Source of the DNA: Balanoglossus misakiensis
Taxonomy: Eukaryota > Animalia > Hemichordata
Assembly: GCA_040954595.2 (NCBI GenBank)
Contig: CM082577.2
Span: forward strand, 11,503,654 to 11,567,653
DNA: 64,000 bases
Direction: 5' to 3'
The notes under the pieces are model-generated. The model ran no database searches. It was not told the DNA's origin and saw only the letters and a program-made list of their open reading frames with translations. This document shows, one piece after another, positions 2,251 through 60,768 of this stretch. The position numbers and the translations under genes are program-made. Numbering within the stretch: position 1 is the stretch's first letter; the number at the start of each line of letters is the position of its first letter.

Positions 2251-2417
2251 GTAAGTTATGTCTTAAAATATGTGAACCCAACAAAGTGGAATAATACTAT
2301 ATACAATATATTAGTATTTGGTGCCATCAAGAGAGGCATTGTTCATATCGATTGCACGTTATAACCTAATAACTATTAAACTAGACACCATCCATCCATT
2401 CACCCACCCTCCTCCAC

Positions 2418-18420: not shown

Positions 18421-18769
18421 ATGGCGAGTAGACCAACACTCCTACTGGTGTTGTGTACCATTATCTACCAACAGCACTTCGAGTCTGTTGTAGGGCAGTC
18501 AACTGTCAGGGGAGAATATCAGTGCCTGAACCGACGCCATGATTGCTACAAGGATGACTCGTGTTCGTACACTTTCACTTTACCTCGGACGGATGGACAG
18601 GAGTGTCCAGCACTTCGAGATGCTATCCTAGATGTACAAGCACTGAAGAGAAAGATTGAGGAGTTAACACTTGGCAGTGACGAGCAGCGGGGTTTGATTG
18701 AAAGGCAACAACGGCTAATGGAGGAACTAAACGAAACGTTGGCAGAGTTGAAGAGTAACCTCACTTCAG
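18421..18769 (+). CDS. Orphan exon 1 (signal peptide, angiopoietin-like motif, coiled coil) of the EPTP family; either a truncated copy or the 5' exon of a chimera
   Basis: 349-bp ATG-to-donor exon nearly identical to 40781-41129 and 48724-49072. Homology to the duplicated units runs about 17887-18942 and stops at a MITE. No EPTP exon follows. Confidence 0.75.
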
Positions 18770-18942
18770 GTATAGCTGAGCTGTAATTTATTAAAACATA
18801 CTTTAAACGATAACTTTCACTATCTTAAGATACTAAACAGCTATGCTGTATGTCTACATATGCCCAAACCAAGGAATGCAGTTTATTCATGGCAGATTAT
18901 TATACTATTTATGTGCATTGGCCATTTCGGGATGACGCGTAA

Positions 18943-31543: not shown

Positions 31544-32155
31544 AGGGCGACGTTTTTATTTTCTGTGTTTCTCATCTCCCGACCGACCGTAAATTTCAGC
31601 TCCGACATAAAAAAAAAAAACTGTTTTATTTGCGCCAACTCTGAGTCTGAGGCGATCATCCCAGCAACAGCGCCCCCAACGGCTAATTGTGAGATTTTGC
31701 AGATCGGTCTGCAAATGACGTCATATTCATCATGGCGGTCGTGTCGGACCAGCGTCTGTCATTCATCGCTGAAGCCATCGAGGCCGGAGGAAAGGAAAGA
31801 CATTGTAGAGAATGAAAGGACAGAGCATTAAAGTGAAAGACAAGAAATTATAGTGACTGAAAGGACAGAGAGCACAAAACACTGGACTGAAAGATAAGAA
31901 ATTGCAATGACTGAACAGCCAGAACATTGAACAGAAACAAATAGGCCTACACATTTGTTTGTAATGGATAAAACATGGAACTGAAACGTTATTTTTACTT
32001 CTGGGTTTATGAAGCTCTAAAAAGTTCAGGGTCAGCAGGTTATAATTAGGGTATGTCGGGTAATTGGAAAAGCACATATTTTTTATTTTGGCCTTATTTC
32101 ATCATTTCCAGGATAAAACATCATATTAAAATTTCAATTTGTATTTAACCTCCAG

Positions 32156-32545
32156 AAAAATGCACAGTTGGCTCATATTCCAACACTGGTCTTGAGCCAT
32201 GTGTACTTTGTCCCCGTCACCATTACCAGAATGAGAGTGGTTCCAGAGATTGCAACCCATGTCCAACAGGACTGCGTACAACACATGAAGGTACCAATAG
32301 TTTGGATAACTGTATAGGTAGGTACATTTGGCATAAAAATTGAAGGGTTTACATATATATCGATTACAAATTCTTTTCCTATTTCTTGAGTTTCTTCAAG
32401 AACATATTGACAAAATTTAATCATTATTGTAGATGTACCATTCTGTTTTATATTTATATCATTTATTTCAGCTATTGATATATGTGAGTACATGTCGCCT
32501 TGTTTGAATGGTGGTACCTGTACAAACACTCCCCAGTTTATCTGA
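32156..32545 (+). pseudogene. Orphan gene fragment: ephrin-receptor-like (GCC2/GCC3) Cys-rich exon plus truncated EGF exon
   Basis: 162-bp phase 1-1 exon 32156-32317 encodes KCTVGSYSNTGLEPCVLCPRHHYQNESGSRDCNPCPTGLRTTHEGTNSLDNCI. The next exon starts at 32472 with IDICEYMSPCLNGGTCTNTP and hits a stop after only 3 of 6 EGF cysteines. Confidence 0.8.
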
Positions 32546-33505: not shown

Positions 33506-36500
33506 TTAATGGTTTAACTCAACTCCTGTCTCAAGATCCATCAGGAGCATGTGTTCCTCTTGCTGGTCTGGTTACAATTCATATCACATTATCTCGCCTC
33601 TCAAGTCTCATCTCACTATCAGATAATTCGGTGGGTACTCCAACTGTCTCTTTCAGTCTTTCAGAAAATCTTGTAGACTCTTTCTGGGGTCTACAATATT
33701 ACACTCAACAAATTGTTAAATTCATAGCATTTTATCTCACTTGCTCTTCGGATTGCAAATGCAAAGAAAAAAGCATATTGGGAGAATATTTTAATGCAAA
33801 TAAGACAACCATGCAATGTTTAATTTTAGCTTTATAGATTTATCTCATTTGCGTGAAAATATTCCTGCACTAAAGATACATCCATAAAGCTACAATGAAA
33901 CATCACATGGCTGTCACATCTGATTAGTGTCGCATAACGTGCCGGTGAGTTGCTCAAGATTGACAAAGTTGATTTTGTACTGTCACATGTATTCATAGTT
34001 CTAAGTACGGTCAGCGCAACAAGTTAGTTTCTACCGATACTACACACTGGCCACACAAGACAAAGTTTGTCAACCTTACCATTTGCCTTCATTTATTTTA
34101 CAATTTATTTCATTGCGTGGATTTTTAATGAAGTGACTCTTCAAAATTTTCAAATATATGTACATGTAGATTAGTTCAGTTAAAGCCTCCAGAGCTGCCA
34201 AATTTCACATATTTTTTTCAACAACAAAGTACTTTAATATATTCCCTATACTTTAAAATCCTCACCATTAAGCCATATTACTTGTATTTGCATCAGGTTT
34301 TCATCTCTTGGCGATGCATAACACGATAGCTGTGTACTGTTTGTATGGAGGATGATTAAATGGTGCGGCACCATTTTTAATACATAGTGTTTTCAAATCG
34401 CTACATACAGCCACAATCTGGCATCGATAAGGTGTTCATGTATACCTATCAGTAAGCTTATGTAGATGGACCAATTTAAGTTGGAAAATAAAGTCATTGA
34501 AATAATGCAAAAAGTGGCAGCTCTAGAGGCTAGTATAACTAGTATTTTATACTATAGCATATTGAGCATAACATCTTTTAAAACAAAAGCTTATGACTGT
34601 ATTTTCATCTTACCAACAGCTTTTAGTGGACGTGGGGCTGAACTTACTGATTGAGTGTATTTCCAGTTTTGGTTTTCATTGACAGTTCAGACAATTGTCC
34701 AGGACTTTCATCTTCTGCAAACCCGATTCAAGATTAAAGTTGCAATCAGCGTTGGCGGGGCTCAAGCGGCTCCCATGATAGCCAGCGAATGCAAAGTCTG
34801 TATAATCTGCTGTGGATACCAATACTAGTATATGGGAAAGTAGGTCGAAGGTCACCCGAGATCACCCAAATTTGGGCAAAACATGTTGACACCATACTGG
34901 TCCATGACCAACAAAAACCAAACCTCTAGCCCTATTGGCTAGCCTGGAATTAGATATGTGCATAATTAATGAGGTAACATGTAAGGCTCCGTTAGGTGTT
35001 CAATCCCTCCAAATGTTAAGTTTCTATCCTGTCTGGATGCCGAGATATGGGAAAGTAGGTCAAAGGTCTATGTCCAACAAAAACCAAACCTCCAACCCTT
35101 TTTGTTAGCCTGGAATTAGATATGCAGAAAAATAATGTATCAGAAATAGGTCAAAGGTCATTGCCAAAATTACCAAAATGCTACTTGCGCCTGTGGACGG
35201 GATCATCGTTTTTCTCTTTGTGGAAATATATTCGACACGATGTCGATGTATTTCGTGGAAGAAACAACAAATCTGGAAACTCACCAGGCGGTGTTGCAGG
35301 AGGACGGGGTGTTCAACGTACGTTGAACCTACGAAGTGCCGCTAGGGTTGAGACGTCACCCAACAACTGTGCCGGTACATGTTAGAAGCAGCCCAACTCG
35401 GCCCGTTGTCATGCGAGTCCAAAGAATTTACCCTAACTACAAGAATTCCGAGGACTAGACTCTTTTCCATCGTTTGATCGCCGGCAGTCTGGTATTGGTT
35501 GGCCCGACCAGAGGACGTCGCCTCGCAGTACCACCACCTGGCACGTGGACAGACGCGGACTGCTGCGACGTCGCTCTCACTCGCGGCCCAAAGTCAAGGC
35601 TTTTAGTAGGCGACCCAGTCTACGTTAAAGTGGTATATGCGCGTGAACATTCAGTGAAACAATTTATGCATGGTCTCTACCCTCTTATTCATTGTTGAGT
35701 CAACTTTTGCATACGTACAGTGTTGCATAATGTTTAGACAACTTTGGGCATGTAATATAATATTGTTCCAACGGTTCCTATTAATATACTTTTACCTGAA
35801 CAAATGTAACTGCAATAAGTTCTAAATTGAAATAGTATTGTTTGGCTACGTTTTGCTGCTCAAATTATTTGAAGGTGGTATGGCCCTCGTTGACATTTTC
35901 AAAAACGTGATAGCCTTCCGAATTTTCAAAGGCTTTGGTATATTAAAATGAGCTGTGTGTCATTTCGAAAACAGTGAACGCAACTACAGGTGTTTGACAT
36001 CGCGATAATTGCCGACGTCACACCATATCAGAAAAGCTCCGCGAAAGTGAAGCACTGTGATAGCACGGAGGGAGACAATTTATATATACGGAATGTCGTT
36101 TCCTTTTGAACGAATATGATGGTGTATGTTCTTGACAACCTCTGACAATCTCGTTTTTCATATTGATTTATTAAATAGTATCGATGCGATGGGTGATCGA
36201 GTCGAGTACTTTATTTTGTTCATATTCCTATGTGCAGCTACAATCAGAGGTTGATAATCATTGACTTTACCAATCGATCAGCTCATTTAAATGGACCATT
36301 CTAAGTTTGAAAAAAAATAATGAAAACAACGCGAACATGTCTATTTTCTGTTTGGCACAAGATGAGGTTATATTGCCCCAGTAAAACAGAGGTATTTTTT
36401 GCAGGGGGTATTAGAAAGGTCGTTAAATTCCATTTGCCAACATCAAAGTAATGCGGCTCGCTAATATAAGAACCTAGGTTACTGAAGCGATCAACTTGAA

Positions 36501-39430
36501 TAGGCAGACCTGTGGCAAACTTTTAACACCATTTTAAATCCCATGGTTCCGTGAAAGCAAGCATTCTTGTACGGCTTGCTATAACCTAAGGACATCGGGG
36601 AAAAGAATGCGTTCAAAATGGTACGGCTATCGGTGACAGATTTTCAGACAAAATGATAGTGCCCAAACTTTCGAAGTCTTTGCTGTTTAAAATGCATTGC
36701 GTGTGATTTCGGAAAGTCAGCACTGTTATCGCAAGGAAGGGTAGGAAACCGAATTTATTTTACTTCCGATATGAAGAACAGTAAAGTAGCGCCATTTGGG
36801 GATAAGGTAAGTGAGATCATGGACTTGAAAATTAGAATTGCAGTCGCACTCAATATGCTGATAATGAATGCATGACACAAATGTTTTTTTGTCAGTGTTT
36901 GCTTGCTATTTTGAAGTGCAATTTTATGTAGACCGTAATTTGGATGAGATTTATTCTCATATACCGGTACATTAAGTTCCACTATTTGTAACATTTGATA
37001 ACTTTTTCAGTAATTTTGATCAGTGTATGAAGCATGACTTCTTGTGTTCATAATCAGCATTGTTTTTGTTAAAATTTGTATTCAAGTCTGGAATTGAATG
37101 CATTTGTCAATAATAACAATTTTCTGTACCAAAAGTTACAGGTTTTTTTCTCTTTAATTGTAAGTCTTATATGTAGAACAGTGTAACACCAAAGCAGTTT
37201 TAAGATACTGAGAAAACTTTATTCATTGAAAAATAAACAATTATTTTGTTATTTTTACCTTAATCATTCAATACAAAATTGTGCTTGATGTTGAAAAACT
37301 TTCAATATTTTCTTTCTCTAAACCTACAAATTTGTACGCCAGATTAGCATGTTTCAAGAGGCATGAATTTAAAATACAATTGTTTTTTTATTTATTTAAA
37401 GTGAAAATACAGTTGTTTGTAAACTTGAATCTATATAGTCACCTATACGCTTTCCCAGAGGGTTTCCCTTATCCTCAAAAAAGGGGTTTTACCTCTGGGT
37501 TTTGGTGCGGGGTAACTTTTCAGTTCATCCAATAAAGTACATGAACCGCTACTCATGTAAAAATGACCTGTACTGTGTGTGTGTATGCATTTGGATGTGG
37601 TAGTTGGAATGCATGCTAGGTGGAATGGGTATGGAGACTAAACTAGAGTGGGTTAGGTGTGAGTGTGTGTAGAGAGCTGGTGGATTTTGTGCGTCCGTCA
37701 ACAATATACATGTAAAATTGAAAATTGTGTATCACAGTGATATTTGATGTGTAGATGTGATTTGGTGGCCGAATGTGAACTCGTTGACATGAAAGTGAAA
37801 TCAACACAGTAACCTCAAAATTGTGAAAATGCATTAAACCCTCTGGGAAGCTGAATTCGGAGGGAGTACAATGTATTGTTGGGGAGAGCAACAGTGGTGA
37901 AATAGCCAGACTGTTCTGTCAATACCCCCTAGTTACAGAGTCATTAACACCTGACCTTACCTAACAAATGGGAAAGGACGTGATTGCCATCGTAAATTCG
38001 ATATTGTTTTTCTTTTAATGATTCTCAATCTGCTCACGGGACATGCTGGCTTTCAAAGTCAAAGTCAGTGTCACTACGAGAGTAAGCGTTTGCTGAGTGA
38101 GATGGATAATTACCAGTTTGCGATTTCTCTGGGGATCAGGTCATGCGTCAACTGCGCTGTACAAGGTGTGGGCTGCAAATTGTTAAATAAATCAGATATA
38201 GCGACTAAAGTCGGTATCTTGGATGAAGCTGTAAACTGTCGAGGTAGAACACTTGACATGCTTGGCTGTTCTCCAGTCTTTTATGGCAACGTGGTATTTT
38301 GTTCACAAATACCTAAAATAGACTTGGGGTCTTCGGAATATACCGAGGTTTGATGCGTGTCTCATTCTTTTGTATTGATTCGAGGCAGCATGGTGGTAGA
38401 AACTGGTTTATCTACGATAAGCATTTTGTCGTCTTCATTATCTTAGTTTTTATCTGGCAATTCATAATCCTTGCCATGCTCACAGGTCAAAGTGACATTA
38501 CGATAAGATGGCTTGGGACATTATGCTGTATGACTGGTAATTTGCGTTGTGGATATGACGACCAGAAGGGCGGTTATTCATTTTCTTTTTCGAGGATATT
38601 CAGCTTTGATAACAGTTGACCATTCATGTCGGATTTTTGTTTTTTTTCAAATCAGACTATCCCCTTTATTTGTTGATTCAAGAGTTTTAATTGAGATTTC
38701 CTATTGGCTTCAAAAGCCACTGAGTTTCACTTTGTGTTTCATCTATAGTTTTCATCAGCGCTGAAACATTTGATTTCATGTTCTCCAAATCTGCAATCAT
38801 TTTAGAGGATGACTTTTTAAGAATTTCTATTTCTTTGCTCAGACTACTCACGTCAGATTCATGGCCCTGTTTCGTGGCAAGAATATCAGCCATTATAGAT
38901 GGCACATTGTCTTTCACAGACATGTCTGCGTGGTTCACAATGGTATGTTGAAGTTCAACATTTTCATTTTCGTCGTGTGCAGAATACAGGGGATTCATAG
39001 TTTGACTGTTGGTGAAGTGTCCTTGCTTCAACAACGGTGTAATAATTGAATAGTTCGTAGCAGTCTTCCAACAGCTTTTCGCCAACTGAAGCTTTCACGT
39101 TTCTACGATTGCAACTGCGCGCCAAAACTCTGTCTGACTTGTTAAAAATGTAAACACAGTATGATGAACATTTAAAACGCCACAGCAAAGCTAGCTAAAC
39201 CGTACATCTTTTTGTCTGAAGCGGGGGATCAACCCACCTCATCATGTTTATTTCATTCGCGGCGACATTATAGAGGCAATTCGGGATCTGGAAATTGTCA
39301 TGGCATACGTTTCTCCCTGCTCCCGGACAAGTCGAAGTACAAATTTCGAGTATAACCCTGATTTGATGCATTTCACAGAATCAAAGCCAAGTTTCTTCGT
39401 GTCTGTATTAGGAAAAAACTTTTTTAACTA

Positions 39431-40009
39431 TAGCTGCTGTTTGTTGCACTAGTTAGACCTTATCTGGAATATGGCAGCAGCATATGGAATCCCTATTTAA
39501 AGAAAGACATTGACTCAATTGAAAATGTTCAACGTCGTGCAACGAAGTTACTTCCCGGTTTAAATCAACTATCATATACTGAGCGTTTGGCGCGTTTGGA
39601 TTTACCATCACTGGCTTTTCGAAGACTACGTGGAGACCTTATTGAAATGTTTAAAATAATGACAGGAATTTACGATAAACGTGTTACTGATGGCCTATTT
39701 ACTCTCAGTCATATGCAGCATACAAGAGGACATTGCTATGAAGTGAATAAAGTACATTGCAAGACAAGTACCAGGAGTAACTTCTTCACAAATAGGATTA
39801 TTGATGTGTGGAATAATATGCCGGAAGCCTTCAAGAACCGTATTGACAATTTCCTCAGTAGTCAACCAATGAAATATGACTACTCCGTTGGATACATTCA
39901 TAGACCCGGACTGGCATAACAATCCAAGATGAATATTTAGTTGAGCTTAGAGGCACTGTGAAGAGCCTGCGCTCAATACCTACCTAACCTAACCTAACCT
40001 AACCTAACC
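39431..40009 (+). mobile_element. 5'-truncated CR1-clade LINE with (CCTAA)n tail, present in unit A only
   Basis: Frame 39434-39919 encodes LVRPYLEYGSSIWNPY..IENVQRRATK..RRLRGDLIEMFK..TRGH..FFTNRIIDVWN. TSD taacta at 39425-39430 and 40010-40015. Empty site at about 47951-47956. Confidence 0.93.
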
Positions 40010-40273
40010 TAACTAAAGGGGTGGATCAAAGTGATTTTATATGGGGGATATGCGCACAGTATTATGGGATACAGTAGTACAGTATGGTCGGTGTCAACAA
40101 GCACAGTGTCGTTATAGCGGGGGCTGCATCTGCGTGTATAATGACATAGAATACACAAAATACTGTATTGACTTACACACATTGTGGACAAGAAATATTT
40201 GAGAATGTCTTCATCTTTTAGGTTTTGAACTCCACAGTTCATGTAAAATTGACCGTGATACTTGTGTTACAGG

Positions 40274-40281
40274 TGACGTCA
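40274..40281. promoter_or_regulatory. Full CRE palindrome TGACGTCA about 500 bp upstream of the EPTP gene ATG
   Basis: Also present at 48217-48224; disrupted (tgatggtca) in the 18421 copy. Motif match only. Confidence 0.25.
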
Positions 40282-40780
40282 TAGTAGTCTACAAACCTTC
40301 CAAATGTTTACAGAGTAGTTTGCCCTTTTCAGCTGTCTTCGTTGGCATCAACCTCCAGCACAAACGGTTGTTTTCAAATACTTGTACTTTTTTTTTGAGA
40401 AACGACCTAATTACCTTTCTTTTACTTCATGTATATTGTACACGACTATGCACAAGCGTACATCATTTGCATTGGAATGTAGCGACTATTTATAGATATA
40501 CTGGAGCAAAGATGGTAAACAGCGACAAAGAAATCCTTTTTCCGGGTGCATGCGATTCTATTGTGGTGTATGTAAAAATCGACCTGTACATTTTGAGCTC
40601 ACACTTGTTTATACATGTAGGAATGGGGTCAGTGAATGTTCCACGACCTCCTCCACCTTTCCCAGGCCTTTGAAGTTTTTTTTGTTTCCTGTTGGTGTCG
40701 AAGGTGTACTTGCAGTCTGTACATTTAGTTCTCGCATTTCCTATACAAACATCACACCTGTGTAGAAATCCTGAGCTGCC

Positions 40781-42758
40781 ATGGCGAGTAGACCAACACT
40801 CCTACTGGTGTTGTGTACCATTATCTACCAACAGCGCTTCGTGTCTGTTGTAGGGCAGTCAACTGTCAGGGGAGAATATCGGTGCCTGAACCGACGCCAT
40901 GATTGCTACAAGGATAACTCGTGTTCGTACACTTTCACTTTACCTCGGACGGATGGACAGGAGTGTCCAGCACTTCGCGATGCTATCCTAGATGTACAAG
41001 CACTGAAGAGAAAGATTGAGGAGTTAACACTTGGCAGTGATGAGCAGCGGGGTTTGATTGAAAGGCAACAACGGCTAATGGAGGAACTAAACGAAACGTT
41101 GGCAGAGTTGAAGAGTGACCTCACTTCAGGTAGCTGAGCTGTAATTTACTTAAGCACACTTTATGATAAATTTCATTTTCTTAAGATACTAAACAGCTAA
41201 GCTGTATGTCTAGATGTTCCCAAACTAAGGAATGCAGTTTATTAATGGCAGATTATTATACTATTTATGTGCATTGGCCATTTCGGGATGACGCGTAAAT
41301 AGTGACGTGTTGCGTTCTTTAGCGGTGGTGCATTCAAGACTGCTGAACTCGTCTCCCCCAACATTCGACAATCGCCTCACCTGGACATCTTCAAGCAAAA
41401 TTTTAAGTCGTATTTCTTTTCCAACGTGTATTATTCGCATTGCTTAGATGAATTCTTAGCCTCCCAACAAACATCGCTAATAGATATTATATCATTCTAA
41501 TTGAACTTTTCCAAAATAATTTCTGTAGTATCTTTACGGTGGAAAATCTCAGCCTCTTATTATTTATATTGAATTAACTATACGTATTCAAATGTTAATG
41601 CCAATCAACGAATACAACATTTCTTTATTTTGTCCTGTCAAATGCATGACGTTAAGTTAACCAATCATACTCTTTTTGTTGTATACAGGGACATGTCTTG
41701 CAGTTAACAAAGACTTTTTGAAGTTTGAAAGCAGTCTAAATCTGACCGCGGTTACATCAGAAATCACAGAAACAAGTCTAATAGCTGGTTTGCATGCTTT
41801 TAACTCGGGCGGTAACACATATCTACAGGTCGCCACACCTGAGGAATTGTACGTTTACATGTTTTCGAGTGATCACGAGGCATTGGAAAAAATACAAACA
41901 GTAACAACAGAGGCATTGGTTAACCCTTGGATTGGCCCAGATTCCTTCCAAATGGATGAGCAACATTATGTTATTGACAGCGGAGACCAGACAAGAAGTA
42001 ATCATGTTTACTGGTGGAACGGAACACAGTTCTCTGAAGTTGACATTATCCAATTTCTCGGCTATACCACGTACACTCAAGCGAGCATGGCATGGTCGTT
42101 TGTACAAAGTCAGACATATGAATTGACCTTTCTGGCTAATGCGTTTTCTAGCACTTCAGATCTAGTAGAAAATAATAACATAGTTGTTTATATTTTGAAT
42201 GGCAGTCATTTCCAGTATTTTCAGGAAATCAATACAGGTCTGAATACGGAAGACCTTGAGTTTTTTCAACCCAACAACCAAGATATCTATCTTTGTCTCG
42301 GTGCCACGTTCAGCCCGGGAGATTATACATCGTTCGTTTACAAATATAATGCCTCGGTTTCCCAGTTTGTTCACCATCAAACTTTACCGGTGCAGGGTGC
42401 AACATCAGACATGTTAATTTTTGACATCCGGGATAATACATTCTTATTGCAAACAATGTACTGGTCTTTTTCTATTCTGTATACATGGAACACAACAACT
42501 TCTTCCTTTGAAGTCCATCAGGAAATTATAATAGAACATGGAAGACAGGCATGCTACGTCGAATACTGTAATCAACACTTCTTAGTGATTGTGACCTTGA
42601 ACGTCGGGTTCGTCGTTTATAAGTTGCGGGGCGACTATTTTCATGAGCACCAAGTCTTCCACACGTTCCAAGGTACGTGGGTGCACAAGTGTGACGTCTT
42701 CCGTGTAGATGGTGTTCAGTATTTGGCTGTCGATAAGATGACATACGTTCTGGTGTAA
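40781..42758 (+). CDS. Secreted angiopoietin-like-stalk / EPTP(EAR)-repeat beta-propeller protein, copy A, 472 aa, 2 coding exons
   Basis: Exons 40781-41129 and 41689-42758 (phase 1, GT-AG), total 1419 nt open. Hydrophobic N-terminus, CSYTFTLPRTDGQEC motif, heptad coiled coil. Repeats of the type S-x-[VI]-Y-x-[WY]-N...F-x-x-x-Q-x-[LI]...GA..D..F match the EPTP/EAR pattern of LGI/TSPEAR/ADGRV1 by eye. Confidence 0.85.
41310..41430 (+). mobile_element. Ancient L2-type LINE 3' fragment in the EPTP gene intron (also at ~49260-49375)
   Basis: Degenerate, frameshifted translation resembling RSFSVxAPRLWNSLP..IRQSPHLDIFKQNLKSYFF. Confidence 0.5.
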
Positions 42759-43327
42759 ATCTGTTTATGATTAGCCATCATAGTTAATTTCTTGGTTGTG
42801 ATATAGCGTGGAATCTGAAAACGAGAACAAATAGATACATGTATCGATGTGCAACAGTATAAACGTCAACCTGTTATAATATGTTGATCGTAGCAACTAT
42901 AATGAATTGTAGAAGGTCACTGCAAAGACCTTGCCCTACACAGATTATTTTTAATTGTATGTCATTTATGTTTTGTTTAATTTTGTTTTCAATATATTTA
43001 GTACCGTGTTTGTAATATAGGGCAATATATTAACTAAGTGTTTATGCTTTATGTAATTGTATGTTATGAAACAGGTGAATATATTACCTGAACAGAAATC
43101 TTTGATATTAGGCAACACTTTCAGCTCGACTTATATTTCATGAATCGATTTTAAAATCCTCTATAAAGTTTTGCAACAATACTGCAGTTTAGAAGATGGC
43201 TGCAAAGACCTTGCTTATGTTATACAGAATATTTTCAATTGTAAGTCTTCTATCTTTTATTTAATTTCATGATTTTGTTTTCAATATATTTAGTACCGTG
43301 TTTGTGTAATATAGGGCAATATATTAA

Positions 43328-43820
43328 AGGCACGTAAGCTGCAACTGGATAAAAAATCTCATATATGCTTTTAATTATATCTATTAAATGCTATTTCATG
43401 ATAATATATCAAGCTCAACACTTATTTATGACAAAATGGCCAAAAATTAAAGAAAAACGAAAATTCCTGAAATTTTTAAAAAAGTGCAATATTGCAATGA
43501 AAAATGAAAATCTGATGTCTCAGTGGTGTACATTTACTTCCATGAACTCAAGTGGATGAGATCATGTTTTATTTATGAAGTTTCACAACCGGAAATGCGA
43601 CATTTTCATTGTTTCTTTGTTTCTTTCATTTTCCCATGGCGGCCATAATCGCTTGCGGCAAAGCTTTATTATTTATCTGGTTAAAACTTGCATATGCACT
43701 CATATTTAGGGTTTATAATGCTTGTGTATAGTTCACTGCCTTCATCTGCATGGACTAATGGTAGTGCAGTGTGAAAAAAAAATTATGAAAATTATCCCAA
43801 AAGTTACAGCTTACGTGCCT
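43328..43820. mobile_element. TTAA-flanked MITE (Kolobok-like), unit A only
   Basis: TTAA|aggcacgtaagctg ... cagcttacgtgcct|TTAA. Empty site at 51634-51637. Confidence 0.9.
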
Positions 43821-43842
43821 TTAACTAAGTATTTATGCTTTA

Positions 43843-44271
43843 GGCCAGAGAGGAAAAAAATCTTGTTCATCGGATTTTTTGGACCAAGTTCCAGGAGCGG
43901 CGAGCGAATATTTTTATTTTTTATTTTTTATTTTTTTAGGCTGAAGGTAAACGCGGTTCTCTGGCATATTTGTACAGATGCCGACAAGGCGAGATAATTG
44001 TTTCCCTTTTTACCAGAAATATCTCAGTCAAAAACATTGATACAGTCATGTACTTGTAACTGAATTCAATACTATATTTCCCAACAACAACATAGGCCAT
44101 TACATTTACAGTAGGTGTTTGCACAACATATTCTGGCCACCAGTGGCAGTGACTAAGAATTTTGTAACACGGAAGTAGAATAGTTGCCGAGATCCAAAAA
44201 AAAAAAAAATTCCAAATCAGCCAAAGTAGAAGCGGCGATTCCGATGAACAATTTATTTTTTCTTCCTGGCC
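43843..44271. mobile_element. PIF/Harbinger-like MITE with TTA TSD, unit A only
   Basis: TTA|ggccag...gttcatcgg ... ccgatgaac...ctggcc|TTA. Empty site gctttatgtaa at about 51650-51660. Confidence 0.85.
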
Positions 44272-47200
44272 TTATGTAATTTTATGTTATGAAACAGGTG
44301 GATATATATTACCTGAAATCATGTTTAATCTTTGATATTAGGCAACACATTCAGCTCAGCTAATATTTCAGGAATCGATTTGAAAATCCTCTGAGGAACA
44401 ATAAGTAAAGAAAGTTTTGCAAATTACAAATTGTTGTTTGCATTTGTAAACTGTGTCGGTATGAACTAATCGATAACTAGATGTAATTGTTCTTGTTTGA
44501 CATCGCGATACTTGCCGATGTCACCCCATATCAGAAAAGCTCCTCAAAAGTGAAGCACTGTGATAGCACGGAAGGGGACAATATATATATACAACTGTAT
44601 ACGGATTGTTTCTTTTAAACGAATATGATGGTGTATGCACTTGACTATTTCGTTTCTCGCATTGATTTATTACATACAGATAGATAGACTGACTACCAGA
44701 ATAGCTTTCGACTCTTGAAATGGGTGATTGAGTACTTTCTTTTGTTCATATTTCTATGTACAGCTACAGTCAGAGGTTGATAATCATCGGGTTTACGAAT
44801 CGATTAGCTCATTTAAATGGACCATTCTAAGTTCGAAAAAAATAATGAAAACAACGCGAACATGTCTTTTTTCTGTTTGGCACAAGGTGAGGCTATATTG
44901 CCCCAGTAAAACACAGGAGGGGGGTATTAGAAAGGGTGTTAAATTCCATTTGCCAACTTCAAAGTAATGCGGCTTGCTTATATAAGAACCTAGGTTACTG
45001 AAGCGAGAAACTTGAATAGGCAGGCAAACTTTTAACACCATTTTAAACCCCATGGTTCCGTGAAAGCAAGCATTCTTGCATGGCTTGCAATAACCTAAGG
45101 ACAGCGGGGAAAAGAATGCGTTCAAAATGGTATGGCTATCGGTGACAGATTTTCAGACAATATGATAGTGCCCAAACTTTCAAAGTCCTTGCTGTTTAAC
45201 ATGTGTTGCGTGTGATTTCGGAAAGTCAGATAAGCTCCTCGAAAGTGAAGCACTGTTATCACAAGGAAGGGGAGGAAACCAAATTTATTTTACTTCCGAG
45301 ATGAAGAACAGTAAAGTAGCACCGTTTAGGGATAAGGTAAGTGAGATCATGGACTTGAAAATTAGAATTGCAGTCGCACTCAATATGCTGATAATGAATG
45401 CATGACACAAATGTTTTTTTGTCAGTGTTTGCTTGCTATTTTGAAGTGCAATTTTATGTAGACCGTAATTTGGATGAGATTTATTCTCATATACCGGTAC
45501 ATTAAGTTCCACTATTTGTAACATTTGATAACTTTTTCAGTAATTTTGATTAGTGCATGAAACATGACTTCTTGTGTACATAATCAGCATTGTTTTTGTT
45601 AAAATTTGTATTCAAGTTTGGAATTGAATGTATTTGTCAATAATAACAATTTTCTGTACGAAAAGTTACAGGTTTTTGCTCTTTAATTGTAAATCTTACA
45701 TGTAGAACAGTGTAACACCAAAGCTGTTTTTAGATACTGAGAAAACTTTATTCATTCAGAGATGAACCATTATTTTTTGTTATTTTTACCTTAATCTTTC
45801 AATACAAAATTTTGCTTGATGTTGTAAAAATTTCAATATTTTCTTTCTCTAAACCTACAAATTTGTACGCCAGATTAGCATGTTTCAAGAGGCATGAATA
45901 TAAAATACAATTGTTTTTTTATTTATTTAAAGTGAAAATACAGTTGTTTGTAAACTTGAATCTGTATAGTTACTTAGTTGATACGCTTTCCCAGAGGGTT
46001 TCCCTTATCCCGAAATAAGGGTTTTACCTCAGGGTTTTGATGCAGGGAAAATGTTCAGTTCACGCAATAAAGTATGTGATCCGCTTCTCACGTAAAAAAT
46101 GACCTGTATTGTGTGTATGTATTTGGATGTGGTAGTTGGAATGCATGCTTGGTGGAATGGGTATGGAGACTAGACTGGGTTAGGTGTGAGTGTGTGTAGA
46201 GAGCTGGTGGATTTTGTGCGTCCGTCAACAATATACATGTAAAATTGAAAATTGTGTATCACAGTGATATTTGATGTGTATGATGTGATTTGGTGGTTGG
46301 ATGTGAACTTGTTGACATGAAAGTGAAATCAACACAGAAACCTCAAAATTGTGGAAATACATTAACACCCTCTGGGAAGCTGAATTCAGAGGGAGTAAAA
46401 TGTGTTGTTTGGGAGAGCAACAGTGGCGAAATAGCCAGACTTGTCTGTCAATACCCCCTAGTTACAGAGTCATTAACACCTGACCTTACCTAACAAATGT
46501 AAAGGACGAGATTGCCATCGTAAATTCGATATTGTTTTTCTTTTAATGATTCTCAATCTGCTCACGGGACATGCTGGCTTTCAAAGTCAAAGTCAGTGTC
46601 ACTACGAGAGTAAGCGTTTGCTGAGTGAGATGGATAATTACCAGTTTGCGATTTCTCTGGGGATCAGGCCCTGCGTCAACTGCGCTGTACAAGGTGTGGG
46701 CTGCAAATTGTTAAATAAATCAGATATAGCGACTAAAGTCGGTATCTTGGATGAAGCTGTAAACTGTCGAGGTAGAACACTTGACATGCTTGGCTGTTCT
46801 CCAGTCTTTTATGGCAACGTGGTATTTTGTTCACAAATACCTAAAATAGACTTGGGGTCTTCGGAATATATCGAGGTTTGATGCGTGTCTCATTCTTTTG
46901 TATTGATTCGAGGCAGCATGGTGGTAGAAACTGGTTTATCTACGATAAGCATTTTGTCGTCTTCATTATCTTAGTTTTTATCTGGCAATTCATAATCCTT
47001 GCCATGCTCACAGGTCAAAGTGACATCACGATAAGATGGCTTGGGACATTATGCTGTATGACTGGTAATTTGTGTTGTGGATATGACGACCAGAAGGGCG
47101 GTTATTCATTTTCTTTTTCGAGGATATTCAGCTTTGATAACAGTTGACCATTCATGTCGGATCGTTGTTTTTTTCAAATCAGACTATCCCCTTTATTTGT

Positions 47201-48723
47201 TGATTCAAGAGTTTTAATTGAGATTTCCTATTGGCTTCAAAAGTCACTGAGTTTCACTTTGTGTTTCATCTATAGTTTCATCAGCGCTGAAACATTTGAT
47301 TTCATGTTCTCCAAATCTGCAATCATTTTAGAGGATGACTTTTTAAGAATTTCTATTTCTTTGCTCAGACTACTCACGTCAGATTCATGGCCCTGTTTCG
47401 TGGCAAGAATATCAGCCATTATAGATGGCACATTGTCTTTCACAGACATGTCTGCGTGGTTCACAATGGTATGTTGAAGTTCAACATTTTCATTTTCGTC
47501 GTGTGCAGAATACAGGGGATTCATAGTTTGACTGTTGGTGAAGTGTCCTTGCTTCAACAACGGTGTAATAATTGAATAGTTCGTAGCAGTCTTCCAACAG
47601 CTTTTCGCCAACTGAAGCTTTCACGTTTCTACGATTGCAACTGCGCGCCAAAACTCTGTCTGACTTGTTAAAAATGTAAACACAGTATGATGAACATTTA
47701 AAACGCCACAGCAAAGCTAGCTAAACCGTACATCTTTTTGTCTGAAGAGGGGGATCAACCCACCTCATCATGTTAATTTCATTCGCGGCGACATTATAGA
47801 GGCAATTCGGGATCTGGAAATTGTCATGGCATACGTTTCTCCCTGCTCCCGGACAAGTCGAAGTACAAATTTCGAGTATAACCCTGATTTGATGCATTTC
47901 ACAGAATCAAAGCCAAGTTTCTTCGTGTCTGTATTAGGAAAAAACTTTTTTAACTAAAGGGATGGATCAAAGTGATTTTATATGGGGGATATGCGCACAG
48001 TATTATGGGATACAGTAATACAGTATGGTCGGTGTCAACAAGCACAGTGTCGTTATAGCAGGGGGACTGCATCTGCGTGTATAATGACATAGAATACACA
48101 AAATACTGTAATGACTTACACACATTCTGGACAAGAAATATTTGAGAATGTCTTCATCTTTTAGGTTTTGAACTCCACAGTTCATGTAAAATTGACCGTG
48201 ATACTTGTGTTACAGGTGACGTCATAGTAGTCTACAAACCTTCCAAATGTTTACAGAGTAGTTTGCCCTTTTCAGCTGTCTCCGTTGGCATCAACCTCCA
48301 GCACAAACGGTTGTTTTCAAATACTTGTACTTTTTTTTTGAGAAACGACCTAATTACCTTTCTTTTACTTCATGTATATTGTACACGACTATGCACAAGC
48401 GTACATCATTTGCATTGGAATGTAGCGACTATTTATAGATATACTGGAGCAAAGATGGTAAACAGCGACAAAGAAATCCTTTTTCCGGGTGCATGCGATT
48501 CTATTGTGGTGTATGTAAAAATCGACCTGTACATTTTGAGCTCACACTTGTTTATACATGTAGGAATGGGGTCAGTGAATGTTCCACGACCTCCTCCACC
48601 TTTCCCAGGCCTTTGAACTTTTTTTTGTTTCCTGTTGGTGTCGAAGGTGTACTTGCAGTCTGTACATTTAGTTCTCGCATTTCCTATACATACATCACAC
48701 CTGTGTAGAAATCCTAAGCTGCC

Positions 48724-50738
48724 ATGGCTAGTATCCCAACACTCCTACTGGTGTTGTGTACCATTATCTACCAACAGCGCTTCGAGTCTGTTGTAGGGCA
48801 GTCAACTGTCAGGGGAGAATATCGGTGCCTAGACCGACGCCATGATTGCTACAAGGACGACTCGTGTTCGTACACTTTCACTTTACCTCGGACGGATGGA
48901 CAGGAGTGTCCAGCACTTCGCGATGCTATCCTAGATGTACAAGCACTGAAGAGAGAGAATGAGGAGTTAAAACTTGTCAGTGACGAGCAGCGGGGTTTGA
49001 TTGAAAGGCAACAACGACTAATGGAGGAACTGAACGAAACGTTGGCAGAGTTGAAGAGTGACCTCACTTCAGGTAGCTGAGCTGTAATTTATTAAAACAT
49101 ACTTTAAACGATTAAGATAAATTTCATTATCTTAAGATACTAAACAGCTAAGCTGTATGTCTAGATGTTCCCAAACTAAGGAATGCAGTTTATTCATGGC
49201 AGATTATTATACTATTCATGTGCATTGGCCATTTCGGGATGACACATAAATAGTGACGTGTTGCATTCTTTAACGGTGGTGCATTCAAGACTGCTGAACT
49301 CGTGTCCCCCAACATTCGTCACTCGCCTCACCATCTTCAAGCAAAATTTTAAGTCATATTTCTTTTCCAACTCGTATTATTTGCATTGTTTAGATGAATT
49401 CTTAGCCTCCCAACAAACATCGCTAATAGATATTATCACATTCTAATTGAATTTTTCCAAAATAATTTCTGTAGTATCTTTACGGTGGAAAATCACAGCC
49501 TCTTATTATTTATATTGAATTAACCATACGTATTCAAATGTTAATGCCAATCAACGAATACAACATTTCTTTATTTTGTCCTGTCAAATGCAATCACTGA
49601 AGTTAAGTTAACACAATCATACTCTTTTTTGTTTTATACAGGCACATGTCTTGCAGTTAACAAAGACTTTTTGAAGTTTGAAAGCCGTCTAAATCTGACT
49701 GTGGTTACATCAGAAATCACACAAACAAGTGTCATAAAAGGTTTGCATGCTTTCAACTCGGGCGGTAAGACATATCTACAGGTCGCCACACCTGAGGAAT
49801 TGTACATTTACATGTTCTCGAGTGATCACGAAGCATTGGAAAAAATACAAACAGTAAAAATAGAGATTGGTTGGGCAACAAATCCCCCTTGGACCGGCCC
49901 AGATTCCTTTCAAATGGATGAGCAACATTATGTTATCGACAGCGCACAGCAGCAGGCAAGAAGTAATCATGTTTACTGGTGGAACGGAACACATTTCACT
50001 GAAGTTGACATTATCCAATTTCTCGGCCTTACCTGGAAGACTGAAATAAGCATGGCATGGTCGTTTGTACAAAGTAAGACATATGGAGTGACCTTTCTGG
50101 CTAACGCCTTTTCTAGTCCTTCAGAATTAGCAGAAAATGATAACATAATTGTTTATATTTTGAATGGCAGTCATTTCCAGTATTTTCAGGAAATCAACAC
50201 AGGTATGAATACGGGAGACCTTGATTTTTTTCAACCCAACAACCAAGATATCTATCTTTGTCTCGGTGCCACGTTCAGCCCGGGAGATTATACATCGTTC
50301 GTTTACAAGTATAATGCCTCGATTTCCCAGTTTGTTCACCATCAAAGTTTACCTGTGCAGGGTGCAACAGAAGACATGTTAATTTTTGACATCCGTGATA
50401 AGATATTCTTATTGCAAACAATGTACGAGTCGACTACTTATACGAGTTTCTCTCTTCTGTATACATGGAACACAACAACTTCTTCCTTTGAAGTTCGTCA
50501 GAAAATAATTAATGAAATTGGAGGACAGGCGTGCTACGTCGAGTACTGTGATCAACACTTCTTAGTGATTGTGAGCTCATTCGTCGGTTTCACCGTGTAC
50601 AAGTTGCGGGGCGACTATTTTCATGAGCATCAAGTCTTTCACACGTTTCAAGTTACGTTAATGTACAAGTGTGACGTCTTCCGTGTAGATGGTGTTCAGT
50701 ATTTGGCTGTCAATGAGATGACATACGTTCTGGTGTAA
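48724..50738 (+). CDS. Secreted angiopoietin-like-stalk / EPTP(EAR)-repeat beta-propeller protein, copy B, 481 aa, 2 coding exons
   Basis: Exons 48724-49072 and 49642-50738 (phase 1), total 1446 nt open. Paralog of 40781-42758. Confidence 0.85.
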
Positions 50739-50909
50739 ATCTGTTTATGATAAGCCATCATCGTTAATTTCTCGGTCGTCTGCAATTAGATTACAATGTA
50801 TAAGATCGTGATATAGCGTGGAATCTAAAAACGAGAAAAAGTAGATACATTTGTCAATGTGCAACGGTGTAAACGTTAACTTGTTATGATATGTTGGTCG
50901 TAGCAACTA

Positions 50910-51800
50910 TAATGAATTTTCGAAGATCACTACAAAGACCTTGCCTATGTTATACAGATTATTTTTAATTGTAAGTTCCTTCTCGTTTATTTAATTTTGT
51001 TTTCAATGTATTTAGTAAGGTGCTTGGAATATTGGACAATGTATTTATGCTTTATGTAATTTTATGTTATGAAACAGGTGAATATATATTACCTGAAATC
51101 ATGTTTAATCTTTGATATTAGGCAACACTTTCAGCTCAGCTAATATTTCAGGAATCGATTTGAAAATCCTCTGAGGAACAATAAGTAAAGAAAGTTTTGC
51201 AACTATACTGAAGTTTAGAAGATCACTGCAAAGACCTTGCCTATGTCATACAGAAAATGTTCAATTGTAAGTCCTTTATGTTTTATTTAATTTTGTTTTC
51301 AATATATTTAGTACCGTGTTTGTAATATAGGGCAATATATTAACTAAGTGTTTATGCTTTATGTAATTGTATGTTATGAAACAGGTGAATATATTACCTG
51401 AACAGAAATCTTTGATATTAGGCAACACTTTCAGCTCGACTTATATTTCATGAATCGATTTTAAAATCCTCTATAAAGTTTTGCAACAATACTGCAGTTT
51501 AGAAGATGACTGCAAAGACCTTGCTTATGTTATACAGAATATTTTCAATTGTAAGTCGTCTATCTTTTATTTAATTTCATGATTTTGTTTTCAATATATT
51601 TAGTACCGTGTTTGTGTAATATAGGGCAATATATTAACTGGGTATTTATGCTTTATGTAATTTTATGTTATGAAACAGGTGAATATATTACCTGAAATCA
51701 TGTTTAATCTTTGATATTAGGCAACACATTCAGCTCAGCTAATATTTCAGGAATCGATTTTAAAATCCTCTGAGTAACAAAAAGTAAATAAAGTTTTGCA
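50910..51800 (+). repeat. About 290-bp tandem repeat, 3 copies, downstream of EPTP gene B (2 copies in unit A from ~42900)
   Basis: Close variants of gaagatcactgcaaagaccttgc recur at ~50922, ~51218 and ~51502, and at ~42911 and ~43192 in unit A. Confidence 0.85.
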
Positions 51801-55460: not shown

Positions 55461-55874
55461 GTAAACTCCAACAAAAGACAGAACGATTCGGTGCTGATGA
55501 CTTTTTCTCTTTACGCTTTGTCCATGTGTGCCACATTTCCAACTTTATGAGTAACCCTGAAAATATGAGTATTGTTTTCCATCAAAGGGGAAGTTACACA
55601 TAGTGTCGTTTCCAATATTCACTCTCAGTGTGTGTGTGTGTGGGGGGGGGGGGGTGTTTTCGTCATGTACTGTTGAGGCGTTTGACAAGAAAACAAAATC
55701 AAGAAAAGGATGACACCAAGACAATTGGTACTCGAATTTCAACCACGACGTATCCAGCGATTTTGCAAAGTAGGGTATAATTAATAGAAGACGCCTTTCG
55801 TGCTCCAAATCGTGTTGTCTGTACTTCTACTTAAAATTATTGCTTTAAAATCTGTAATCATGTTATCTTATTAG

Positions 55875-56303
55875 AATTGGTTCGAGTGCGAGCTTCAAAC
55901 ATCGACCCGTTGCGAATCAATGGGAGTTTTGACGTTGTCATGGGCGAAACCAACAAGTTTCTTCTGTCGCTGCTACTGGCTACAGCAAGCAGCAACACAG
56001 GATTCATATCGGGTCAAGCGAAGGATCTGTTCAAAGTTGAGCTGTTCGTCTCCGCTTCGAGCAAAGCTAACAACGCCAATGGTGACAGGTACGAAGCGAA
56101 TATTACGTCCGGTGAAATAACCCTCCAATCGAGCACAGTTGTCGCGATCGCAGCCGCCGAAAATATTGACCTCTCATCCGGGACCTGTGCTAACTTCTCT
56201 TACATCTGCGCCGAGGTGTCGCCGGCAGAACATTCTGGCTGGATTTGGGACGGGTCGGTTAGTCTCCTTGGCCCCGCGTGTCAGCCTTTTCGTTCTTGTG
56301 GAA
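55875..56303 (+). CDS. About 143-aa extracellular beta-rich, 4-Cys domain exon of pentraxin gene B (tentatively ARIS-like)
   Basis: 429-bp phase 1-1 exon (ttattag ... a|gtaagt), GC-rich coding-like composition. LFKVELFVS...GDRY...DLSSGTCANFSYICAEV...CQPFRSC. The family label is from memory and unverified. Confidence 0.75.
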
Positions 56304-56504
56304 GTAAGTATTAGTGCGTGTCTGTAGATTATCAGAAATATGCATCATTGGAAAAAATATACTTTGCAGCAGACAAAGCGTAGCTTCATTTTTATCTCAT
56401 TTCAAATCTGCTTTGAAATAACTTCTATTGGCTGACAGTATAACCAAAAACATTCAAAACAATGAAGATTTAACTAATGTTCCAGTAGGTACAATATACA
56501 CTAT

Positions 56505-58355: not shown

Positions 58356-58426
58356 TTTTTTAATTTAAATTTAAACCAATCGAACTTGCATTTTATGACA
58401 AACTTTTCTGTCTTTCCGTCTTTCAG

Positions 58427-59023
58427 CTAAGAGAAATACTCTTGAATTACTTTCAACTCAAACGGATGTTGCTGTTCAAATCGATGTCCCTGATTTGACA
58501 AATGTGACTGCATGTCTCTGGGTCAAAGCTGTTTCGCCAAAAGCAACGGCAACATTGGTTTCTTACTGTGTCAGCCTTTCCAACTGTAACGAGTTCGTCT
58601 TGTATGGTACAACCTCTCTCAAACTTTACGTCAAAGAGGAAGGCGCTCGGACAGGATTGGGGGTAGATGATGGCGCTTGGCATCATATGTGCGTGACATG
58701 GTCCTCAAGTGGTGGAAACTGGGCAAGTTACCATAATGGTGACTTGTATCTGACTGGAGATGGTTTAGCGTCTGGTGAGACTATAAGAACTAATGGGACA
58801 TTGGTGTTAGGTCAAGAACAGGATGACCGGAGGGGTGGATATAACGAGTCACAAGCATTTGTTGGCAGCATCACTCAATTCAACATGTGGTCCAGAGTCT
58901 TAACAGATGGGGAAGTTGCCATGGTAGCACAAGACTGCTCAATTGGAGGAGATGTCTTTACTTGGAATACTGCTTCTCTCTACATGTCAGCTAATGCAGA
59001 GCTGGGAAATAGCAATGTTTGCT
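58427..59023 (+). CDS. Pentraxin domain exon B1
   Basis: 597-bp phase 1-1 exon with HHMCVTWSS and LGQEQD motifs. Confidence 0.92.
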
Positions 59024-59132
59024 GTAAGTTATGTCTTAAGATATGATGAAAAAATGATGAACCCAACTATATAGAATATTACAGTATAGTATTTGGTGCC
59101 ATCAAGAGAGGCATTGTTCATATCGATTGCAC

Positions 59133-59202
59133 GTCTTTGCTTGGAATACTGCTTCTCTCTACATGTCAGCTAATGCAGAGCTGGGAAAGAGTGATGTTTG
59201 TG
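59133..59202 (+). pseudogene. 3' remnant of a deleted pentraxin exon
   Basis: Encodes VFAWNTASLYMSANAELGKSDVC followed by gtaag, with no acceptor. Confidence 0.85.
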
Positions 59203-59368
59203 GTAAGTTTCATTTAGAGTTCAACCATTTGATGCCCCAAACATAAAAGAATAACACGAAAATACTATAGTACTTAAAATGCCTGTTTAAAAATTAAACC
59301 AATCCAAATATCATAACTATAATGGATTTACATTTTATAACAAACTTGTCTGTCTTTCCACGTTTCAG

Positions 59369-59965
59369 CTAAGGGTAACACTCTTGAATTACTTTCAACT
59401 CAAACGGATGTTGCTGTTCAAATCAATGTCCCTGATTTGACAGCTGTGACTGCGTGTCTCTGGGCCAAAGCTGATTCGCCAAAAGAAAATGCAACATTGG
59501 TTTCTTACTGTGTCAGCCGATCTAGCTGCAACGAGTTTCTCTTGTATGGTACAACCTCTCTGAAACTTCACGTCAAACAGAAAAGCGCCAAGACAGGATT
59601 GGGGGTAGATGATGGCGCGTGGCATCATATGTGCGTGACATGGTCCTCAAGTGGTGGAAACTGGGCAAGTTACCATGATGGTGAATTGTTAAGCAGCGGT
59701 CAAGGTTTAGTGTCTGGTCAGAACATCAGAACAGGTGGGACATTGGTGTTAGGTCAAGACCAAGATGACCGGAGAGGTGGATATGACGAATCACAGGCAT
59801 TTGTTGGCAGCTTCACTCAATTCAATATGTGGTCCAGAGTTTTGACAGATGTGGAAGTTGCGATGGTGGCACAAGACTGCTCAATTGGAGGAGATATCTT
59901 TGCTTGGAATACTGCTTCTCTCTACATGTCAGCAAATGCGTATCTTGGAAAGAGCCGTGTTTGCT
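59369..59965 (+). CDS. Pentraxin domain exon B2
   Basis: 597-bp phase 1-1 exon with the GQDQD variant of the motif. Confidence 0.92.
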
Positions 59966-60137
59966 GTAAGTTATGTTTTTAATTAGAGTTGAACCTCTTG
60001 ATCCCCTAAACATATGAGAATAATACGAAAATACTAGTAGTTCAAAATTGCCTGTCTTAACTTTAAATCAATCCAAACCTCACAGCTATAATGACTTCGC
60101 ATTTTATAACAAACTTTTCTATCTTTCCATCTTTCAG

Positions 60138-60734: not shown

Positions 60735-60768
60735 GTAAGTTTATGTTTTAATTAGAGTTCAACCACTT

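What the first reader, a model, noticed from the sequence alone, without database searches (positions are those of the whole stretch)
40781..50738. Angiopoietin-type stalk joined to an EPTP/EAR propeller instead of a fibrinogen domain
Seen: two intact two-exon genes. Exon 1 encodes a signal peptide, CSYTFTLPRTDGQEC and a coiled coil; exon 2 encodes about 355-365 aa of repeats. Known: angiopoietins use an N-terminal C-[AS]-YTF-x-LP clustering motif and a coiled coil ahead of a fibrinogen domain, while EPTP/EAR seven-bladed propellers occur in LGI, TSPEAR and ADGRV1. Inference: exon shuffling at the phase-1 intron created a secreted, oligomeric propeller-headed protein, organised like ficolins or collectins. 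I do not recognise this architecture from any characterised family.
Basis: partly seen in the sequence, partly recalled or inferred. Interest (0 to 1): 0.85.

Follow-up and report, generated by a model that had tools for sequence, protein, structure and literature searches.

The report
Acorn-worm stalked propeller protein family
Two tandem genes with intact reading frames belong to an acorn-worm protein family, not found in our literature searches, that joins an angiopoietin-like cysteine motif and a predicted coiled-coil stalk to a predicted seven-bladed propeller of the epilepsy-protein LGI1 type; the likely binding face changes fastest between the copies, so the proteins likely act as secreted multi-headed recognition molecules.

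Summary
Both two-exon genes splice in frame through a phase-1 GT-AG intron (472 and 481 aa). Exon 2 passes Pfam's EPTP cut-off and folds as a seven-bladed propeller closest to LGI1 (pLDDT 92, Z 33.5). Exon 1 gives a likely signal peptide, four conserved cysteines and a coiled coil that the model self-associates (0.67; best control 0.03). Five full-length relatives have the same layout; all named relatives are acorn worms (Ptychodera, Saccoglossus, Glandiceps), and one orthologue pair spans a split of at least 370 Myr. The cysteine motif matches human ANGPTL2 by pattern only; no profile hit links it to angiopoietins. The closest layout is myocilin/olfactomedin (cysteines, coil, propeller), not ficolin or collectin. 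New here: substitutions between the copies pile up on the face where LGI1 binds ADAM22 (31 of 91 residues versus 5 of 43 opposite; p 0.006), though a codon count gives only dN/dS 1.04. A third, headless exon-1 copy lies upstream of a frame-compatible transmembrane exon. Expression, ligand and stoichiometry are untested. Verdict: real, lineage-restricted new variant of stalk-and-head secreted proteins; recognition role likely but unproven.

The parts
40781..41129 (+). Copy 1, exon 1: likely signal peptide (about 1-25), four-cysteine region (C35, C42, C48, C62), coiled coil (about 65-114); phase-1 donor
41130..41688 (+). Copy 1, phase-1 GT-AG intron, 559 nt
41689..42758 (+). Copy 1, exon 2: linker cysteine plus seven-bladed EPTP-type propeller, five N-glycosylation sequons, stop
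48724..49072 (+). Copy 2, exon 1 (93% identical in protein to copy 1)
49073..49641 (+). Copy 2, phase-1 GT-AG intron, 569 nt
49642..50738 (+). Copy 2, exon 2: EPTP-type propeller, 57 of 355 aligned residues differ from copy 1, plus 9 extra residues, all in top-face loops
18421..18769 (+). Third, headless copy of exon 1 (96% identical in protein to copy 1), open frame, phase-1 donor; copied with about 540 nt upstream and 170 nt of intron (17885-18942); no exon 2 follows
35991..51343 (.). Tandem duplication holding both genes (35991-43327 against 44494-51343, about 93% identical in its two main blocks)

Best explanation
These two genes have intact frames and encode likely secreted proteins of an acorn-worm family whose predicted coiled-coil stalk would bundle several predicted EPTP propeller heads, which likely bind variable foreign or cell-surface ligands by avidity through their fast-changing top face. 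Shown: gene anatomy, the family and its spread over three enteropneust families, the excess of amino-acid change on one face. Predicted: seven-bladed fold, coil self-association. Inferred: secretion; cross-linking of coils into larger bouquets by the N-terminal cysteines, as in angiopoietin-1 and olfactomedin-1; binding at the rim of the central channel, as LGI1 binds ADAM22; a recognition role (innate defence or mucus/surface recognition) as the cause of the divergence. Confidence in the anatomy and family is about 0.9; the figure given is for the recognition mechanism.
For: Open spliced frames. Propeller: pLDDT 91.8, 27 strands plus an N-terminal strand closing blade 7, the closure described for LGI1; the 7 best Foldseek rows are LGI1 (TM 0.76-0.78, E about 1e-14, next E 5e-8); VIA Z 33.5, rmsd 2.7, 316 aligned, next family Z 30.2. 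Coil: three copies of residues 26-116 score 0.67 against a best control of 0.03 (3 controls), runs agree in at least 93% of contacts, pLDDT at least 66, interface on a heptad pattern 64-114 (mark reached by 21 of 30 solved homo-pairs and 0 of 23 single chains; in eukaryotes 17 of 29, animals 7 of 16, 1 of 7 without an older solved relative, 0 of 30 single chains; calibrated on two copies). Family: C35, C42, C48, Y50, F52, P55, C62 invariant in 10 of 10 aligned stalks. Divergence between the copies: top loops 31 of 91 residues, bottom loops 5 of 43, strands 21 of 209 (p 0.006 and 2e-6); non-degenerate sites in top loops 38 of 173 against four-fold sites 8 of 112 (p 0.0005; 0.015-0.02 after dropping codons near indels). 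LGI1 Tyr433 and Met477, needed for ADAM22 binding, map to the same d-a loops (read).
Against: Nei-Gojobori counting gives top-face dN/dS 1.04, not above 1, because synonymous change is also high there; relaxed constraint or patchy gene conversion can give this. Divergence of non-coding flanks varies from 0 to 7% between windows, so the neutral baseline is uneven. Only two copies were compared and faces were assigned from strand order in a model. Non-top non-degenerate sites are not significantly below four-fold sites (23 of 485 vs 8 of 112, p 0.21). The cysteine region is poorly modelled (pLDDT 40-67) and nearly absent from the confident interface. A coiled-coil pass may come from likeness to solved coils. 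One paralogue pair is conserved across 370 Myr (44%), which suits a housekeeping or signalling role for at least that branch. No ligand or tissue data.
Confidence: 0.45

Rival explanations
1. Endogenous receptor-clustering ligand: a secreted oligomer that gathers a host receptor, as angiopoietin-1 does with Tie2, olfactomedin-1 is proposed to do, and LGI1 does with ADAM22; the copy differences reflect relaxed constraint after duplication.
For: Every characterised protein with this head or this stalk plan acts on host receptors. Ancient conserved orthologues P0027/P0108. dN/dS about 1 on the top face fits relaxation.
Against: Replacement change on the top face exceeds four-fold sites about 2.3-3 fold; the window's branch is long and tandemly multiplied, here and apparently in P. 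flava (three models on one contig length).
Confidence: 0.28
2. Structural or adhesive component of mucus, extracellular matrix or a gamete surface; the fast-changing face reflects gamete or species recognition, or a matrix partner.
For: Five conserved N-glycosylation sequons per head; disulfide-capable stalk; myocilin's coil is described as sticky and matrix-binding. Gamete-recognition proteins evolve fast on binding faces (general knowledge).
Against: Nothing here points to gonad, mucus or matrix; short stalk (about 50 residues) in these copies.
Confidence: 0.19
3. One copy is an assembly artefact (two haplotypes laid in tandem) or the genes are silent recent duplicates.
For: Stretches of the flanks differ by under 1%; no reads could be laid.
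Against: Exon 2 differs at 98 of 1063 bases with frame-keeping indels only; a third partial copy exists; homologous gene models exist in three genera. If the copies were alleles the family and the top-face pattern would stand, read as balanced polymorphism.
Confidence: 0.08

Closest known systems
Myocilin and olfactomedin-1 to -4
   Same: Secreted; two or more N-terminal cysteines, central coiled coil, C-terminal beta-propeller (PMC4463452, passages). Myocilin Cys47/Cys61 (10.1101/154112, passages) are 14 apart, as C48/C62 here. Noelin and myocilin-like rows appeared in an Atlas structure search of the stalk, on the coil only and under the tool's bar.
   Different: Their head is the five-bladed OLF domain; here it is a seven-bladed EPTP propeller. 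They are dimers of dimers; stoichiometry here is open. Likeness of the residues between the myocilin cysteines is recalled, not tested.
Angiopoietins and ANGPTL2
   Same: N-terminal two-cysteine clustering motif, coiled coil, then a cysteine before the head (PMC6284558, PMC8261516, passages). The ANGPTL2 sequence printed in PMC4112196 has C-x-Y-x-F-x-V-P-x8-C ahead of its coil; the family pattern is C-x-Y-x-F-x-[LVF]-P-x6-C.
   Different: Fibrinogen head instead of a propeller; two extra upstream cysteines here; no profile-level hit.
LGI1-4
   Same: Secreted, C-terminal seven-bladed EPTP propeller with the same closure; best structural match.
   Different: LGI has an LRR domain, no coil; 14-15% identity.
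TSPEAR and ADGRV1
   Same: EPTP/EAR repeats; NCBI names relative P0009 'TSP-type laminin G and EAR repeat-containing protein-like'.
   Different: No laminin G domain in P0009 or any member: that name is a similarity label. No GPCR or Calx-beta parts.
Ficolins and collectins
   Same: Stalk-and-head plan giving avidity (general knowledge); possible functional analogy.
   Different: No collagen repeats, no fibrinogen or C-type lectin head.

Membership tests
EPTP/EAR propeller (PF03736) | EPTP repeat above Pfam's gathering score | tested here: met
   22.2 and 26.1 bits against 21, one stretch each; relatives 34-94 bits
EPTP/EAR propeller (PF03736) | Seven four-stranded blades, N-terminal strand closing blade 7 | tested here: met
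   Model strands; LGI1 best. The model's alignment held EPTP proteins, which favours this fold.
LGI | LRR domain before the propeller | tested here: not met
   No Pfam family on exon 1 at E up to 1; long helix in the full-length relative's model
TSPEAR | N-terminal laminin G/TSP-N domain | tested here: not met
Angiopoietin/ANGPTL | C-terminal fibrinogen-like domain | tested here: not met
   Exon 2 is EPTP
Angiopoietin/ANGPTL | N-terminal cysteine clustering motif homologous to theirs | tested here: inconclusive
   Pattern matches printed ANGPTL2 and an unlabelled peptide recalled as angiopoietin-1; no profile hit among 1760 candidates
Angiopoietin/ANGPTL | Self-associating coiled coil | tested here: met
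   Prediction only: 0.67 against 0.03
Olfactomedin/myocilin | Five-bladed OLF domain (PF02191) | tested here: not met
   No OLF hit; seven blades
Olfactomedin/myocilin | N-terminal cysteines + coil + C-terminal propeller layout | tested here: met
Olfactomedin/myocilin | Disulfide-linked dimer of dimers | not tested
   Only three copies were folded
Ficolin/collectin | Collagen stalk and lectin head | tested here: not met
   No Gly-X-Y run in exon 1; no lectin or fibrinogen family

The most novel reading that the evidence does not exclude
The cysteine-motif-plus-coil stalk is one ancient, portable exon shared by angiopoietins, myocilin and this family, fitted with three unrelated heads; in acorn worms it carries an EPTP propeller that has become a diversifying non-self recognition head, a new class of multivalent immune recogniser, and the headless copy at 18421 shows the stalk exon moving into a frame-compatible intron of a neighbouring receptor gene.
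Probability: 0.25. Interest if true: 0.72.

Novelty: new variant of a known kind. Interest (0 to 1): 0.5.

Why it matters
Characterised animal EPTP propellers (LGI, TSPEAR, ADGRV1) are conserved neural and ear proteins (PMC3691968, passages). Here the same fold sits on an oligomerising stalk in a multigene family at least 370 Myr old, with its binding face diverging between tandem copies. If that face reads foreign surfaces, acorn worms have a recognition family missing from the catalogue of invertebrate immune proteins. The stalk motif also gives a testable link between the clustering region of angiopoietins and the N-terminus of myocilin, and two natural variants differing mostly on one face make a ready pair for ligand screens. 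Lineage-specific domain shuffles are common in invertebrate deuterostomes, which caps the surprise.

Tried and rejected
Expression: no RNA holder was listed, so no reads were laid; this is no evidence either way. No whole genome is held and the cluster look-up could not be made, so copy number, intron positions in relatives and the organisms of most of the 150 listed profile hits are unknown. Bacterial origin of the single-exon propeller: raised by Atlas feature hits to bacterial EPTP clusters (0.92, recognition 1609, weak) and by bacterial-looking top HMMER hits; not supported, since the family groups with P0029 (100/99) and next with six unnamed 344-374 aa proteins (98/98), away from the bacterial-looking rows, and a scan of prokaryote genomes confirmed 0 of 47 pattern matches. 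Not excluded either: branches are long, no named LGI, TSPEAR or ADGRV1 sequence was on hand, 86 of 155 sequences lacked a long enough profile match and were left out of the 69-row tree, and the 28-row tree was a hand-picked subset. Ten metagenome loci matching exon 1: rejected as chance; the 2 of 10 read are one kind of bacterial 384-aa ORF sharing a short word. Stalk searches in PDB sequences, Pfam and NCBIfam gave only generic coil matches; the cysteine region was not folded alone, so nothing is claimed about its fold. Exon 2 as a stand-alone gene: first Met falls inside blade 1. LGI1-like central calcium site: acidic residues on inner strands here are not kept in P0003/P0005, not pursued. 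Earlier-findings look-ups returned nothing. Paper searches without a useful hit; one TSPEAR paper was not held; PMC4609988 and PMC6890424 passages added little.
Full report
Observation. The window is animal DNA of about 38% GC with introns and repeats. Copy 1 splices as 40781-41129 + 41689-42758 (472 aa) and copy 2 as 48724-49072 + 49642-50738 (481 aa), both without internal stops, through phase-1 GT-AG introns. They lie in a tandem duplication, 35991-43327 against 44494-51343. A third exon 1 sits at 18421-18769 with no exon 2. Coding constraint shows in frame-keeping indels (3 of 3 in exon 2; 0 of 5 in the intron) and dN/dS 0.35 on strands; a stricter site count did not reach significance for non-top sites (p 0.21). 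The splice is predicted only.

Head. Exon 2 just passes Pfam EPTP. AlphaFold2 with a 53-row alignment gives pLDDT 91.8, pTM 0.91 and 28 strands that order into seven blades, the N-terminal strand closing the last, as in LGI1 (PMC5906670, passages). The seven best Foldseek rows are LGI1; among 48,161 chains VIA ranks LGI1 first (Z 33.5, rmsd 2.7, 316 aligned, 15% identity), WD40 proteins following at Z 30.2 and below. Two cysteines on neighbouring inner strands of blades 6 and 7 are kept in all six propellers and likely form a disulfide (inference).

Stalk. Exon 1 has a hydrophobic stretch at 7-15 (no signal-peptide predictor was available), cysteines 35, 42, 48, 62 and a heptad run to 114. Three copies of 26-116 score 0.67 against a best control of 0.03; runs agree in at least 93% of contacts, pLDDT at least 66; the interface is the heptad core. 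The mark was reached by 21 of 30 solved homo-pairs and 0 of 23 single chains (eukaryotes 17 of 29, animals 7 of 16, 1 of 7 with no older solved relative; 0 of 30 single chains), calibrated on two copies. It supports self-association; two and four copies were not run, so the trimer is not established. The full-length relative P0005 models as a low-confidence hairpin (38-50), one helix (62-125) and the propeller.

Family. Exon 2 found one protein among 518 candidates, P. flava P0003, with a transmembrane N-terminus. Exon 1 found 2 among 587, P. flava isoforms P0004 and P0005; P0005 matches both exons in order, and the isoforms share their first 124 residues and diverge just before the linker cysteine, as expected for the same intron (inference). 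A propeller profile gave 488 hits, 150 listed; a stalk profile built from P0002 and P0005 picked four more among 153 stored proteins (P0009, P0012, P0027, P0108; E 1e-12 to 1e-3). A wider stalk profile returned 7 proteins among 1760 candidates, four of them its own members, all named as acorn worms: P. flava, Glandiceps talaboti, Saccoglossus kowalevskii. That search is word-limited, so the restriction to enteropneusts is provisional; the window is likely an acorn worm too, by best hits only. In the 28-row tree the family with P0003 has 92/82 support and with P0029 100/99; P0027 (Saccoglossus) and P0108 (Ptychodera) pair at 100/100 (44% identity). The two lineages split at least 370 Myr ago (PMC4729200, passages), so the family had paralogues by then. 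Several unnamed proteins with a coil and EPTP but no cysteine motif (P0024, P0044, P0104) fall outside the clade, so coil-plus-EPTP likely arose more than once.

The angiopoietin question. The pattern C-x-Y-x-F-x-[LVIF]-P-x5-8-C occurs in 8 of 154 stored proteins, all family members (the other 146 were chosen by propeller likeness, a weak control). Human ANGPTL2 as printed in PMC4112196 carries it ahead of its coil; an unlabelled peptide in PMC2982831, which I recall as angiopoietin-1, does too. A rough estimate gives 0.3 chance matches in a human-sized proteome and about 1e-6 in a fixed 40-residue window (the gap range was set after seeing ANGPTL2, frequencies recalled). No profile hit backs this. 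In angiopoietin-1 two N-terminal cysteines cross-link dimers into higher oligomers and one more lies between coil and head (PMC6284558, PMC8261516, passages); exon 2 here also opens with a cysteine. The whole plan, N-terminal cysteines, coil, propeller, is the one stated for olfactomedin-1 to -4 and myocilin (PMC4463452, passages), and myocilin's Cys47/Cys61 have this family's spacing (10.1101/154112, passages; its supplementary alignment could not be seen and may bear on this). Noelin and myocilin rows in the Atlas search were leads on the coil alone.

Divergence. Exon 2 differs between copies at 98 of 1063 bases, the intron at 27 of 554, exon 1 at 15 of 349. With faces assigned from the model's strand order, top loops (d-a, b-c) differ at 31 of 91 residues and hold all 9 indel residues; bottom loops 5 of 43; strands 21 of 209. 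Non-degenerate top sites differ at 0.22 against 0.071 at four-fold sites (p 0.0005; 0.015-0.02 without indel-adjacent codons). Against this, codon counting gives dN/dS 1.04 on top and flank divergence is uneven. LGI1's ADAM22-binding Tyr433 and Met477 fall in d-a loops in the alignment. So the likely ligand face is the one that changes: diversifying selection is suggested, relaxation not excluded.

Mechanism. Best reading (0.45): secreted, coil-bundled, probably disulfide-clustered propellers that bind variable foreign or cell-surface ligands by avidity. Rivals: host receptor-clustering ligand (0.28), matrix, mucus or gamete protein (0.19), artefact or silent copy (0.08).

Novelty. It fails a defining feature of LGI, TSPEAR, angiopoietin, olfactomedin, ficolin and collectin families, while likely working like the stalk-and-head secreted proteins. 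No description was found: EPTP + hemichordate 0 papers, EAR repeat + Saccoglossus 0, one unrelated-looking lectin review seen as a listing only, one LGI review (passages), 0 hits in two supplement files of PMC4729200. The library lacks most subscription papers. The proteins exist as uncharacterised database models. Verdict: new variant of a known kind, interest 0.5.

Noticed in passing
window 17885-18942 and 21123-22200: The headless exon 1 ends in a phase-1 donor, and the next recognisable coding exon (21123-21276, transmembrane helix) opens in phase 1, followed by exons at 21476-21637 and from 22158. A splice would give a membrane-anchored stalk without a head; untested.
   Followed up: partly
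window 102-2294 and 58399-60751: Two arrays of three tandem pentraxin-domain exons on the + strand, 85-88% identical between arrays; two of the first array are nearly 99% identical in DNA.
   Followed up: partly
window 32149-32542, 55835-56314: An ephrin-receptor-like (GCC) exon and an EGF-like exon upstream, and pentraxin exons downstream, on the same strand: the two genes may be nested in an intron of an SVEP1-like modular gene (comparison recalled, continuity not shown).
   Followed up: partly
window 16347-17758 (-), 39434-39919 (+): Fragments that look like LINE reverse transcriptase (recalled likeness; no matching Pfam hit for the two tested); the second lies only in the first duplication unit.
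   Followed up: no
P0004, P0005, P0154: P. flava models with near-identical stalks and different, partly truncated propellers, two called isoforms of one gene: one stalk exon may be spliced to alternative heads.
   Followed up: no
P0006-P0153: EPTP propellers are common in bacterial-looking surface proteins, up to 27 repeats, with PEP-CTERM, C1q, PKD or pilin-type leaders, and in unnamed eukaryote-looking proteins with ShK, WSC, PAN or kinase domains.
   Followed up: no
window 9046-12992: A large inverted repeat, about 1 kb arms at 99% identity.
   Followed up: no
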